DNA of 64,000 nt from Candidatus Micrarchaeota archaeon (GTDB lineage: Archaea; Micrarchaeota; Micrarchaeia; Micrarchaeales; Micrarchaeaceae): NCBI GenBank assembly GCA_021800515.1, contig JAJYYU010000001.1, positions 6,975 through 70,974 of the forward strand. The letters run 5' to 3'. Below are positions 23,493 to 54,960 of this stretch, piece by piece. Position 1 is the first letter of the stretch. The number at the start of each line of letters is the position of its first letter. Made by a program: the position numbers and the translations under genes. The notes beneath the pieces were generated by a model. The model did no database searches. It was not told the origin of the DNA and saw only the letters and a list, made by a program, of their open reading frames with translations.

Positions 23493-23604
23493 AGCCCTGA
23501 ATGGGAATTGAACCCACAACCTCTTGTTTTCCTGTTTCTTGATTAAACTTCTTTTTAAGAAGTTTATTTACAAGACAAGCGCTCTGCCGTTGAGCTACCA
23601 GGGC
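23493..23604 (-). tRNA. tRNA-Thr(UGU) with a ~40-nt intron at 37/38
   Basis: Hand-folded from the reverse complement. Acceptor GCCCTGG/TCAGGGC, D arm GCTC-AACGGCA-GAGC, anticodon stem CTTGT/ACAAG, loop CUUGUA|intron|A, T arm GTGGG-TTCAATT-CCCAT, discriminator U. Confidence 0.85.
23534..23566 (-). repeat. type I hairpin unit inside the tRNA-Thr intron
   Basis: In tRNA sense it reads TAAACTTCTTAAAAAGAAGTTTAATCAAGAAAC. It is 29/33 identical to intergenic 43025..43057 and has a 9-bp stem AAACTTCTT/AAGAAGTTT. Confidence 0.8.
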
Positions 23605-35401: not shown

Positions 35402-35458
35402 AATTTTTAAAGAAGTTTCATCAAAAGAAACTTTTAGGAAAAGTTTCATCAAAAGAAA
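35402..35458 (+). repeat. tandem hairpin-element dimer (degenerate type I + type II)
   Basis: AATTTTTAAAGAAGTTTCATCAAAAGAAACTTTTAGGAAAAGTTTCATCAAAAGAAA. Positions 35425..35455 are 29/31 identical to the tRNA-Ala intron, with a perfect 9-bp stem GAAACTTTT/AAAAGTTTC. Begins 40 nt after the giant-gene stop. Confidence 0.8.
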
Positions 35459-43024: not shown

Positions 43025-43088
43025 TAAACTTCTTAGGAAGAAGTTCAATCAAGAAAGAAACTTTTAAGAAAAGTTTCATCAAAAGAAA
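43025..43088 (+). repeat. tandem hairpin-element dimer (type I + type II)
   Basis: TAAACTTCTTAGGAAGAAGTTCAATCAAGAAAGAAACTTTTAAGAAAAGTTTCATCAAAAGAAA. The first unit is 29/33 identical to the tRNA-Thr intron unit. The second unit (43055..43085) is 28/31 identical to the tRNA-Ala intron. Confidence 0.85.
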
Positions 43089-43154
43089 ATCAAAAAATCT
43101 GTGAGATAAAATTGCAATGCAATAAACATTACATTTTAATCCTGGAGTGTGTAT

Positions 43155-43905: not shown

Positions 43906-44009
43906 TGGGCTCGTGGCTCAGTAGTGGAGCGCCTGCTTTGCAAAGAAACTTTTAGAAAAAGTTTCATCAAAACAGCAGGAGGCCGCGGGTGCGATTCCCG
44001 CCGAGTCCA
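43906..44009 (+). tRNA. tRNA-Ala(UGC) with a 31-nt intron at 37/38
   Basis: Hand-folded. Acceptor GGGCTCG/CGAGTCC includes the G3:U70 alanine identity pair. D arm GCTC-AGTAGTG-GAGC, anticodon stem CCTGC/GCAGG, loop UUUGCA|intron|A, T arm GCGGG-TGCGATT-CCCGC, discriminator A. Confidence 0.88.
43943..43973 (+). repeat. type II hairpin unit, equal to the tRNA-Ala intron
   Basis: AAGAAACTTTTAGAAAAAGTTTCATCAAAAC with a 9-bp stem GAAACTTTT/AAAAGTTTC. Near-identical copies lie at 35425..35455 and 43055..43085. Confidence 0.85.
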
Positions 44010-54928: not shown

Positions 54929-54960
54929 AAATTTTAAAAAAGTTTAATCAAAAAGAAAAT
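54929..54960 (+). repeat. degenerate type II hairpin-element copy
   Basis: AAATTTTAAAAAAGTTTAATCAAAAAGAAAAT compared with AAACTTTTAAGAAAAGTTTCATCAAAAGAAAAT at 43058..43090. The stem is largely lost. Begins 48 nt after the permease stop. Confidence 0.4.

What the first reader, a model, noticed from the sequence alone, without database searches (positions are those of the whole stretch)
23534..23566. The tRNA-Thr intron carries the sister (type I) unit of the same hairpin family
Seen directly: the ~40-nt intron of tRNA-Thr(UGU) on the minus strand contains TAAACTTCTTAAAAAGAAGTTTAATCAAGAAAC. This is 29/33 identical to plus-strand intergenic 43025..43057 (TAAACTTCTTAGGAAGAAGTTCAATCAAGAAAG). Both tRNA genes in the window therefore have introns drawn from one two-member repeat family. 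The tail differs in step with the anticodon loop: ATCAAG could pair with loop CUUG in Thr, and ATCAAAA with loop UUUG in Ala. That would fit a helix of a BHB-like structure (inference).
Basis: partly seen in the sequence, partly recalled or inferred. Interest (0 to 1): 0.6.

Follow-up and report, generated by a model that had tools for sequence, protein, structure and literature searches.

The report
Conserved hairpin cassette inside tRNA introns
The intron of this tiny archaeon's threonine tRNA gene is one copy of a short hairpin-plus-tail module that recurs, almost letter for letter, in many tRNA introns of its whole order and right after stop codons, which gives a concrete handle on how archaeal tRNA introns arise and spread.

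Summary
The tRNA-Thr(UGU) intron (window 23529-23568, minus strand) matches intergenic 43025-43057 at 29/33. It matches another intergenic unit of the same genome (contig C20) at 33/34.

The hairpin plus (A/C)AUCAAR-AA tail is not a two-member family. A strict pattern finds it in 67 of 151 genomes of the order, against one control hit. It lies in introns of at least eight tRNA species at 37/38 and in T-loop introns. It also lies directly after 16S rRNA and a tRNA 3' end, and abutting stop codons.

In tRNA-Ala the tail CAAA is the strand of the central bulge-helix-bulge helix. In tRNA-Thr a separate CAGG, 2 nt from the 3' splice site, gives the canonical geometry, and the tail CAAG is an equal-energy alternative.

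Across genomes the tail's G or A follows the cassette's stem type (42/42 and 48/49), not the host anticodon loop.

Best reading: a propagating, strand-specific cassette that sits in tolerated transcribed sites and is removed from tRNAs by an ARMAN-2-type epsilon2 endonuclease. How it spreads is unknown; neither Y1 transposases nor reverse transcriptases track it.

The parts
23493..23604 (-). tRNA-Thr(UGU) gene with one intron at the canonical 37/38 position
   Evidence: Rfam RF00005 scores 55.6 bits over model positions 1-71 with a 42-nt insertion. Sequence read. Orthologues are called Thr(tgt) by ARAGORN.
23529..23568 (-). 40-nt intron: AAUAAACUUCUUAAAAAGAAGUUUAAUCAAGAAACAGGAA
   Evidence: Boundaries follow from the anticodon stem CUUGU/ACAAG and the loop CUUGUA|...|A.
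23544..23566 (-). Cassette hairpin, type I (UAAACUUCUU-AAA-AAGAAGUUUA); the inner helix h' of the splicing motif
   Evidence: Folds at -8.1 kcal/mol, z = -3.6. Paired in 91.5% of cells across 25 orthologues.
23536..23543 (-). Cassette tail AUCAAGAA; its CAAG (23538-23541) can pair with nt 32-35
   Evidence: Conformer A costs -34.6 kcal/mol. The tail is conserved in orthologues and in copies outside tRNA genes.
23531..23534 (-). Distal CAGG: pairs with C32-U33-U34-G35 and leaves the canonical 3-nt 3' bulge A-A-A38 (23528-23530)
   Evidence: Conformer B costs -34.5 kcal/mol. A 4-mer at this distance pairs 4/4 in 22 of 30 orthologues. 90.6% of cells are paired.
23571..23574 (-). tRNA nt 32-35 (CUUG): the 5' strand of the central helix
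   Evidence: Sequence and alignment A2.
43907..44009 (+). tRNA-Ala(UGC) gene. Its 31-nt intron is 43943-43973 (type II cassette). The tail CAAA at 43968-43971 pairs with U32-U33-U34-G35, and the 3' bulge is A-C-A38.
   Evidence: Rfam scores 55.0 bits. Sequence. The BHB structure costs -39.7 against an MFE of -40.6 kcal/mol. The gene is 103/103 identical in G002.
43025..43091 (+). Intergenic type I + type II dimer, 106 nt after a plus-strand ORF and 64 nt before the next
   Evidence: An orthologous dimer is present in G004 and is not seen in G002.
35409..35458 (+). Intergenic degenerate unit + type II unit between the 2286-aa ORF and the next plus-strand ORF
54937..54953 (+). Decayed copy (3' arm + tail AAAAGUUUAAUCAAAAA) 56 nt after a plus-strand ORF
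   Evidence: nhmmer E = 0.63 (weak); contexts.

Best explanation
**What it is.** The Thr intron is a resident copy of a conserved, strand-specific module. The module is an 8-11 bp A/U-rich hairpin followed by the tail (A/C)AUCAAR-AA. Type I is AACUUCUU-loop-AAGAAGUUUAAUCAAGAA.

**Where it occurs.** The module is copied among transcribed sites where extra RNA is tolerated:
- inside tRNA introns at 37/38 and in T-loop introns;
- directly after the 3' ends of 16S rRNA and of a tRNA;
- at or just after stop codons, often in head-to-tail arrays.

**What it does in a pre-tRNA.** It supplies only the inner helix. The splice geometry is set by tRNA nt 32-35 pairing with a 4-mer placed 2 nt before the 3' splice site. 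In Thr of this genome that 4-mer is a separate CAGG, and the cassette's own CAAG is a redundant, equal-energy alternative. In Ala the cassette's CAAA does the job itself.

**How it is removed.** The intron is cut out by the genome's single epsilon2-type splicing endonuclease, a close relative of the ARMAN-2 enzyme that cleaves both strict and relaxed motifs.

**Shown:** family membership, distribution, modular architecture, presence of the enzyme.

**Inferred:** that the cassette is copied between sites rather than recruited independently, and that splicing uses the CAGG conformer.

**Unknown:** the copying mechanism.
For: **Distribution**
- The pattern AACTTN{6,11}AAGTTYMATCAA occurs in 67 of 151 genomes of the order, with one hit to the reversed control. 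Every match is a true hairpin.
- tRNA hosts: Thr(UGU, CGU, GGU), Ala, Ile, Phe, Gly(UCC) and Arg(UCU) at 37/38, plus T-loop introns.
- Other hosts: directly after ...GAUCACCU of 16S rRNA in G000 C41, after the discriminator of tRNA-Ala in G073, and in frame in three paralogous genes of G007.

**Signs of copying**
- The Thr and Ala introns are 33/34 and 30/31 identical to adjacent units of one intergenic array on C20.
- In G034, Thr(UGU) and Thr(CGU) have introns identical at 35/35, while their exons match at 64/72.
- In G042, two different tRNAs share an identical 33-nt cassette.
- The same host carries different cassette types in different genomes. Ala has type II in G000, G002, G003, G016, G045 and G015, and type I in G012, G048, G143 and G126. 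Thr has type II in G033, G037 and G137.
- The non-loop positions are invariant in 21 Thr genes from two families.

**Modularity**
- Intron-less alleles exist, as do 12-19 nt mini-introns that consist of little more than the '4-mer + 2 nt' end.
- Cassette introns are the cassette followed by such an end.
- Type I copies always stop at ...CAAGAA, and the sequence after that differs from site to site.

**Copies outside tRNA genes**
- A sense-strand ORF ends within 150 nt upstream in 19 of 21 informative loci.
- The stop codon overlaps or abuts the cassette's 5' end in 11 loci.
- Copy number is polymorphic at one orthologous site: none, one, three or four units.

**Enzyme.** E = 1e-166 to PDB 4FZ2 end to end, with the catalytic Y/H/K and the ARMAN-specific-loop Y-K conserved. 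That enzyme cleaves both strict BHB and relaxed BHL substrates (PMC3239211, PMC12397907).
Against: - No mobilising enzyme was found. The only Y1 transposase in G000 belongs to an IS200/IS605 element whose end hairpin is unrelated.
- Y1 genes occur in 81 of 151 genomes and are not enriched in cassette-rich genomes. None was found in G002 or G042.
- No reverse transcriptase was found in any of the four genomes of the genus sampled. RT genes occur in 22 of 151 genomes of the order.
- No consistent target-site duplication was seen.
- The strict sense orientation is not explained by a simple DNA transposon.
- Invariance of the stem and tail across two families could reflect purifying selection for a function rather than copying.
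- At the C3 site, congeners keep hairpins with different compensated stems. That argues for selection on structure.
- Covariation cannot separate the two Thr conformers, because the tRNA side does not vary.
Confidence: 0.6

Rival explanations
1. The hairpin and tail are a functional RNA signal, for example a protein-binding site that protects or defines RNA 3' ends. It would be kept by selection wherever it occurs. Its presence in introns would be recruitment or a by-product, not copying of a selfish unit.
For: - Stem and tail are invariant in 21 Thr genes of two families, while the loop and the 3' extension drift.
- The orientation is strictly sense, and copies sit at the ends of genes, of 16S rRNA and of a tRNA.
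- At the orthologous C3 site four congeners keep hairpins that start at the stop codon, but with different compensated stems.
- Bacterial REP hairpins in 3' UTRs stabilise mRNA (my own knowledge).
Against: - About ten gene ends in an 803-kb genome carry it, so it is not a general terminator or stabiliser.
- G003 lacks it at the C3 site.
- Thr and Ala genes do well without any intron in 9 and 6 genomes respectively.
- No U-run follows it, so it does not look like an archaeal terminator.
- Identical cassettes in unrelated hosts of one genome, and type switches at one host, are not expected from site-by-site selection.
- No binding partner is known.
Confidence: 0.25
2. One reading: the two tails were tuned to their hosts' anticodon loops by compensatory change, so that each forms the central BHB helix of its own pre-tRNA.
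For: - CAAG pairs 4/4 with CUUG (Thr) and CAAA pairs 4/4 with UUUG (Ala).
- The Ala tail is at the correct distance from the 3' splice site.
- In Ala genes, type II cassettes need no extension in 5 genomes, while type I cassettes always carry an extra CCAAAAAA.
- In G002 and G003 the Thr intron ends at the tail.
Against: - The same tails occur in intergenic copies, in T-loop introns and in hosts with AUGG, CUUA, CUGA, CUUC and CUCG loops. There they cannot pair 4/4, and a separate host-specific 4-mer is present.
- The tail base follows the stem type in 42/42 and 48/49.
- Thr(CGU) genes keep CAAG despite C34.
- In 24 of 26 Thr(UGU) genes the tail lies 8-15 nt from the splice site.
Confidence: 0.1
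3. Chance resemblance of A/T-rich hairpins.
For: The genome is about 35% G+C, and short A/T palindromes are common.
Against: - 0 of 100 shuffles give the match.
- There is one control hit against matches in 67 genomes.
- BLAST E-values range from 2e-5 to 2e-11.
Confidence: 0.01

Closest known systems
tRNA intron transposition families of Thermoproteales (Fujishima et al. 2010, as cited in PMC3239211 and used as a positive control in bioRxiv 10.64898/2026.10.13.758758)
   Same: Near-identical introns occur in different tRNA genes and at different positions of one genome. The lineage has a broad-specificity splicing endonuclease.
   Different: - The shared part here is a sub-module (hairpin + tail) joined to a host-specific 3' piece.
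- It is conserved across a whole order rather than within genomes.
- It also occurs outside tRNA genes: after stop codons, after 16S rRNA, and in frame in protein genes.
- The lineage is a Micrarchaeota-like DPANN archaeon with an epsilon2 enzyme.
Bacterial REP/BIME elements mobilised by RAYT (Y1) transposases; my own knowledge
   Same: - A roughly 30-nt imperfect palindrome with a short conserved linear motif.
- Lies just 3' of genes, in variable tandem arrays, and is strand-specific.
- Copy number is polymorphic between close relatives.
   Different: - No RAYT-like gene is linked to it. The Y1 gene of G000 sits in an IS605-type element with an unrelated hairpin, and there is no co-occurrence across the order.
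- REPs are not known to serve as tRNA introns.
Canonical archaeal bulge-helix-bulge tRNA intron at 37/38
   Same: The position is 37/38. A 4-bp helix forms between nt 32-35 and an intron 4-mer placed 2 nt from the 3' splice site, with a 3-nt 3' bulge and an inner hairpin.
   Different: In Thr the 5' site is a strict bulge only in the alternative conformer that uses the tail. With CAGG it lies in a 3 x 7 internal loop, which is a relaxed BHL-type motif.
ARMAN-2 (Ca. Micrarchaeum acidiphilum) disrupted tRNA genes and epsilon2 EndA (PMC3239211, PMC3488258, PMC12397907)
   Same: The same enzyme type (E = 1e-166) and the same spectrum of intron positions, including 59/60.
   Different: A term search of two of these papers (PMC3239211 and PMC12397907; PMC3488258 was not read) found no mention of hairpins, shared intron sequence or copies outside tRNA genes.

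Membership tests
Archaeal BHB tRNA intron (canonical 37/38) | The intervening sequence lies between tRNA nt 37 and 38 | tested here: met
   Rfam alignment, manual reading, and 30 orthologues with the same boundaries.
Archaeal BHB tRNA intron (canonical 37/38) | A 4-bp central helix flanked by two 3-nt bulges, with an inner helix | tested here: inconclusive
   The helix C32-G35:CAGG, the 3' bulge AAA and the inner hairpin are all present. The 5' bulge is strict only with the tail CAAG as partner. The two conformers cost -34.5 and -34.6 kcal/mol. The unconstrained MFE (-36.9) mispairs the anticodon stem.
Archaeal BHB tRNA intron (canonical 37/38) | A splicing endonuclease able to cut the motif is encoded | tested here: met
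   There is one EndA gene. It is epsilon2 type, E = 1e-166 to 4FZ2, with catalytic and ARMAN-specific-loop residues conserved.
Archaeal BHB tRNA intron (canonical 37/38) | The intron is actually excised | not testable with these tools
Transposed tRNA-intron family (Thermoproteales type) | Highly similar introns in different tRNA species of one genome | tested here: met
   G034 Thr(UGU) against Thr(CGU): introns 35/35, exons 64/72. G042: an identical 33-nt cassette in two tRNAs. In G000 the Thr and Ala cassettes are sister types, not near-identical.
Transposed tRNA-intron family (Thermoproteales type) | The same intron sequence at different tRNA positions | tested here: met
   At 37/38 and in T-loop introns.
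REP/RAYT-like or IS200/IS605-derived hairpin element | A cognate Y1 transposase whose own ends or flanks carry the same hairpin, and which co-occurs with the repeats | tested here: not met
   The G000 C6 tnpA-tnpB element has the hairpin CCCACUUUUUAAAGGUGGG, which is unrelated. Y1 genes occur in 81 of 151 genomes, with none found in cassette-rich G002 and G042. Cassettes near Y1 genes in G090 and G094 are ordinary tRNA introns.
MITE | Terminal inverted repeats plus a target-site duplication of fixed length | tested here: not met
   The two arms are inverted repeats, but no consistent flanking direct repeat was seen. The only case is a 12/16-nt imperfect repeat around the in-frame copies of G007.
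Retroposed excised intron | A reverse transcriptase is available in the lineage where copies multiply | tested here: not met
   PF00078 was found in 0 of 4 genomes of the genus and 22 of 151 of the order. The assemblies are 80-94% complete, so this is absence in what was searched.
Intrinsic terminator | A hairpin followed by a U-run on the sense strand | tested here: not met
   The tails are A-rich and no T-run follows.

The most novel reading that the evidence does not exclude
The cassette is a complete excised tRNA intron that spreads at the RNA level.

- Its ends (AAC... and ...CAAG-AA) are those of a minimal Thr intron, and for type II (...CAAA-AN) those of a minimal Ala intron.
- It is always in the sense of the host transcript.
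- It forms head-to-tail arrays.
- Its 5' end is joined to points where RNAs are cut or end: 5' splice sites, the 16S 3' end, the tRNA discriminator, and between the 2nd and 3rd base of stop codons.

This would fit insertion of a linear intron into cleaved RNAs by the tRNA ligase, followed by copying back into DNA by an unknown route. It would be the first proposed route of arrival for archaeal endonuclease-spliced introns.
Probability: 0.15. Interest if true: 0.9.

Novelty: new variant of a known kind. Interest (0 to 1): 0.68.

Why it matters
How archaeal and eukaryotic protein-spliced tRNA introns arrive in genes is an open question. [quoted passage not shown]

This lineage offers a tractable case. 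A recognisable 30-nt module is seen in all three possible states of the same tRNA gene: no intron, a mini-intron, and a cassette intron. The same module is also seen outside tRNA genes.

The lineage's splicing enzyme has already been purified and crystallised. Gain, loss, nesting and the rules of splice-site definition can therefore be tested directly.

The work also shows that the splicing motif is assembled from a mobile inner part and a host-specific 4-mer. That explains how one sequence can serve many tRNAs.

Tried and rejected
1. **ARAGORN without the intron option.** It found no tRNA in the window. With -i it found both genes but mis-assigned Thr as Ser. I used Rfam and manual reading instead.

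2. **Free-energy folding to decide between the tail and the distal partner in Thr.** The two are equal in energy, and the unconstrained MFE mispairs the anticodon stem, because CUUGU occurs twice in a row.

3. **Covariation on 25 orthologues.** Both helices are about 91-93% paired with no double-sided changes, so this test does not separate them.

4. **Y1 transposase (REP/RAYT or IS200/IS605) as the mobiliser.**
   - The gene is present in G000, but its hairpin is unrelated.
   - There is no co-occurrence across the order.
   - Apparent proximity in G090, G094 and G137 was explained by tRNA genes lying next to insertion sequences or integrated elements.

5. **Reverse transcriptase.** None was found in the genus.

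6. **C/D-box or K-turn reading.** The complement of the type II tail contains UGAUGA, but there is no D box and no tandem G.A pairs. Rejected by inspection.

7. **The 11-nt tail motif on its own.** 19 genomic hits against 5 control hits. 13 of the 14 intergenic hits are family copies, so there is no hidden hairpin-less class.

8. **Rfam on 20 loci outside tRNA genes.** Only one tRNA was found, and no rRNA or other family.

9. **Exact insertion boundaries from filled against empty orthologous sites.** Congeners are too diverged (70-83% identity) to give base-level boundaries.

10. **A first orientation script** mis-assigned strands because the hairpin is palindromic.

Full report
**1. The observation**

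The window lies in an 803-kb, 49-contig, about 35% G+C genome estimated 90% complete. Rfam finds two tRNA genes, both interrupted.

tRNA-Thr(UGU) is at 23493-23604 on the minus strand. Its 40-nt intron lies between nt 37 and 38 (23529-23568) and reads AAUAAACUUCUUAAAAAGAAGUUUAAUCAAGAAACAGGAA. tRNA-Ala(UGC) is at 43907-44009 on the plus strand, with a 31-nt intron at 43943-43973 that reads AAGAAACUUUUAGAAAAAGUUUCAUCAAAAC.

The quoted 33-mer is at the stated coordinates and matches 43025-43057 at 29/33. A degenerate pattern covering both finds only these two sites in the window and none in 100 shuffles. BLAST gives E = 2e-5 against the whole genome.

**2. The family in this genome**

BLAST and an nhmmer profile find 13 clear units at 9 loci:
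- the two introns;
- dimers at window 35409-35458 and 43025-43091;
- a trimer at C20:1535-1621;
- two units at C27;
- single units at C4, C21, C30 and C3;
- one unit directly after the 16S rRNA 3' end (...GGAUAGAUCACCU|AUAAAC, C41).

The closest relatives of the two introns are not in the window. Unit I of the C20 array is 33/34 identical to the Thr intron. The adjacent unit II matches 30 of the 31 nt of the Ala intron.

All intergenic copies whose flanks could be read have the orientation of the gene upstream of them.

Of roughly 15 intron-containing tRNA genes in the genome, only three carry the module: Thr(UGU), Ala(UGC) and a degenerate T-loop intron in tRNA-Arg(UCG) on C10. Thr(CGU) has an unrelated 13-nt intron.

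**3. The family in relatives**

The genome's single splicing endonuclease aligns end to end with the ARMAN-2 (Candidatus Micrarchaeum acidiphilum) epsilon2 enzyme, PDB 4FZ2, at E = 1e-166. The catalytic Tyr, His and Lys and the Tyr-Lys of the ARMAN-specific loop are conserved. The organism is therefore a Micrarchaeota-like DPANN archaeon.

The strict pattern AACTTN{6,11}AAGTTYMATCAA matches in 67 of 151 genomes sampled from the order. The reversed control pattern matches once. In every match the variable part completes a hairpin.

I fetched about 80 of these sites. The module lies in:
- introns at 37/38 of Thr(UGU), Thr(CGU), Thr(GGU), Ala(UGC), Ile, Phe(GAA), Gly(UCC) and Arg(UCU);
- T-loop introns of several tRNAs (G002, G042, G048, G055, G062, G105, G128);
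- the position immediately after the discriminator base of an intron-less tRNA-Ala (G073, confirmed by Rfam);
- three paralogous genes of G007, in frame;
- positions downstream of protein genes.

**4. Architecture**

Every type I copy ends at ...AAUCAAGAA, whatever its host. What follows differs from site to site.

In tRNA hosts the following piece ends with a 4-mer complementary to the host's nt 32-35, then 2 nt, then the 3' splice site:
- CCAU or CUAU for Thr(GGU), loop AUGG;
- UAAG for Ile, loop CUUA;
- GAAG for Arg(UCU), loop CUUC;
- CAAA for Ala, loop UUUG;
- UGAA for T-loop introns, where the 5' strand is U54-U55-C56-A57.

For 30 Thr(UGU/CGU) genes I tabulated this:
- the 4-mer at -6 to -3 pairs 4/4 in 22, 3/4 in 7, and fails in one (G008);
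- the 3' bulge is AAA, AGA or AUA in all;
- the distance from the cassette tail to this 4-mer varies from 2 to 9 nt;
- the tail itself is the partner only in G002 and G003.

The commonest form is AAUCAAGAA-CAAGAA|A.

The same gene also exists without any intron in 9 genomes. In G013, G021 and G022 it has 12-17 nt mini-introns that lack the cassette but end in CAGG-AA, CAAG-AG or CAGG-AU.

Ala shows the same three states:
- intron-less in 6 genomes;
- a mini-intron in G014;
- cassette introns in the rest.

Among the Ala cassette introns, type II is used without an extension in 5 genomes. Type I always comes with an extra CCAAAAAA, in 4 genomes. A cassette intron is thus the cassette plus the 3' end of a mini-intron.

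**5.

For Ala it holds. U32-U33-U34-G35 pair with the tail CAAA. The 3' bulge is A-C-A38, and this structure lies 0.9 kcal/mol above the MFE.

For Thr two conformers are equal in energy.
- Conformer A (tail CAAG, -34.6 kcal/mol) gives a strict 5' bulge U36-A37-A next to the hairpin. It leaves the 3' splice site in a 10-nt loop.
- Conformer B (CAGG, -34.5 kcal/mol) gives the canonical 3' bulge. It leaves the 5' site in a 3 x 7 internal loop.

The unconstrained MFE (-36.9 kcal/mol) mispairs the anticodon stem, because CUUGU is repeated.

Counting pairs on 25 orthologues gives 92.9% (tail) and 90.6% (distal) of cells paired. Neither helix shows a double-sided change, because the tRNA side is fixed.

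What favours B is geometry. Only the distal 4-mer keeps a fixed distance to the splice site while its sequence varies among pairing-compatible forms (CAGG, CAAG, UAAG, UAGG, CGGG). Either conformer is the kind of relaxed substrate the ARMAN-2 enzyme cuts in vitro (PMC3239211, PMC12397907).

The claim that the tails changed in step with the loops fails as a rule.
- The tail base after AUCAA is G in 42 of 42 copies with a CUUCUU stem, and A in 48 of 49 with a CUUUU stem, across all hosts and outside tRNA genes. Many of these copies are orthologues, so the counts overstate independence.
- Thr(CGU) keeps CAAG although C34 cannot pair with it.

The type I end CAAG-AA is exactly what a minimal intron needs in a tRNA with a YUUG loop such as Thr(UGU). 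The type II end CAAA-AN is what Ala needs. The tails may therefore be relics of the hosts in which the two types arose (inference).

**6. Copying or selection**

Evidence for copying:
- identical or near-identical cassettes in unrelated hosts of one genome (G000 introns against the C20 array; two tRNAs of G042; G034 Thr(UGU) against Thr(CGU), introns 35/35 against exons 64/72);
- different cassette types in the same host in different genomes;
- copy-number polymorphism at one orthologous intergenic site: none in G003, one in G000 and G004, three in G001, four in G002;
- a dimer shared with G004 but not seen in G002.

Evidence for selection on sequence or structure:
- outside the loop, the cassette is invariant in 21 Thr genes from two families;
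- at the C3 site the hairpins of G002 have different but compensated stems.

Either way, some partner must read this sequence. I could not identify it.

**7. Position outside tRNA genes**

In 19 of 21 informative loci a sense-strand open frame of at least 70 codons ends within 150 nt upstream. In 11 loci its stop codon overlaps or abuts the first bases of the cassette (...UA|AAC...UG|AAC). ORFs were called crudely, from stop to stop.

**8. Mechanism of spread**

- A Y1 (IS200/IS605) transposase exists in G000, next to tnpB. Its end hairpin is unrelated.
- Y1 genes occur in 81 of 151 genomes without enrichment in cassette-rich ones.
- Three apparent proximities were explained otherwise.
- Reverse transcriptase was not found in the four genomes of the genus and occurs in 22 of 151 genomes of the order.

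The route therefore remains open.

**9. Literature**

Full-text searches and term searches inside four papers found:
- intron transposition in Thermoproteales;
- the ARMAN-2 enzyme and its disrupted tRNA genes;
- a 2026 statement that the route of intron arrival is unresolved.

They found no description of this cassette or of intron-like copies outside tRNA genes. Absence from these searches is not proof of absence.

**10. Earlier notes of this scan**

Note e1-2956741 reached 'mobile 30-base hairpin doubling as intron' from the Ala intron. I had stated the same reading before seeing it and tested it independently here.

**Verdict.** The feature is real and belongs to an order-wide family.

Noticed in passing
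G000 contig C6:1-1330 (locus L111): An IS200/IS605-type element: a 130-aa Y1 transposase gene (E = 6e-40) followed by a tnpB-like ORF that runs off the contig end. Upstream is the hairpin CCCACUUUUUAAAGGUGGG. It is inserted next to an ftsZ-like gene.
   Followed up: partly
G000 contigs C10:2702-2722, C20:788-808, C34:1071-1091, C39:13696-13716: A roughly 50-nt near-identical stretch (AGAGAGAGAAAAACAAAACUUUUUGGAAAAAAGUUUUCAGAUAAUAGCGCC). Three of the four copies lie inside large ORFs that run off contig ends. It is probably a repeated gene that breaks the assembly, and it contains its own hairpin.
   Followed up: no
G007:C3:262768, 267613, 270113 (loci L061-L063): Three paralogous genes carry the cassette in frame (KLFGKKFNQ), just before a QSAMEYLMTYGWA motif that resembles an archaeal prepilin signal. 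The cassette is flanked by a 12/16-nt imperfect direct repeat that encodes KSQSA twice. By eye no BHB can be drawn there, so it is probably translated.
   Followed up: partly
G137:C28:125300-129400 (locus L134): Two tRNA-Thr(UGU) copies lie 3.4 kb apart and flank a 361-aa ORF with a Y1 domain. One has a type II cassette. The other has a type I cassette and a degenerate 3' half. It looks like an integration that duplicated the tRNA and brought a different cassette type.
   Followed up: partly
G000 contigs C29:1929-2040 and C10:11615-11730; C32:8258-8354; C48:2416-2563: Two tRNA-Arg genes have 38-nt T-loop introns with a clean UUCA:UGAA central helix. tRNA-Leu(CAA) has a short T-loop intron. A Trp-like tRNA has a 75-nt intron. 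About half of the tRNA genes found in this genome are interrupted.
   Followed up: partly
G002:C30:5-107 against window 43907-44009: The tRNA-Ala gene, intron included, is 103/103 identical between G000 and G002. Their tRNA-Thr(UGU) introns differ strongly: the G002 hairpin is half-deleted and its loop is U32. The flanking DNA is only about 70% identical.
   Followed up: no
window 23571-23580 (tRNA-Thr nt 27-36): The 5' strand of the anticodon stem and the anticodon loop are a direct repeat (CUUGU-CUUGU). Any intron 4-mer that pairs with the loop can therefore also invade the stem. The predicted MFE does exactly that.
   Followed up: partly
window ~34000: Cumulative GC skew has a minimum near 34 kb, where gene orientation switches from minus to plus. 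This could be a replication origin or only a transcription effect. It confounds any test of cassette orientation against replication direction.
   Followed up: no
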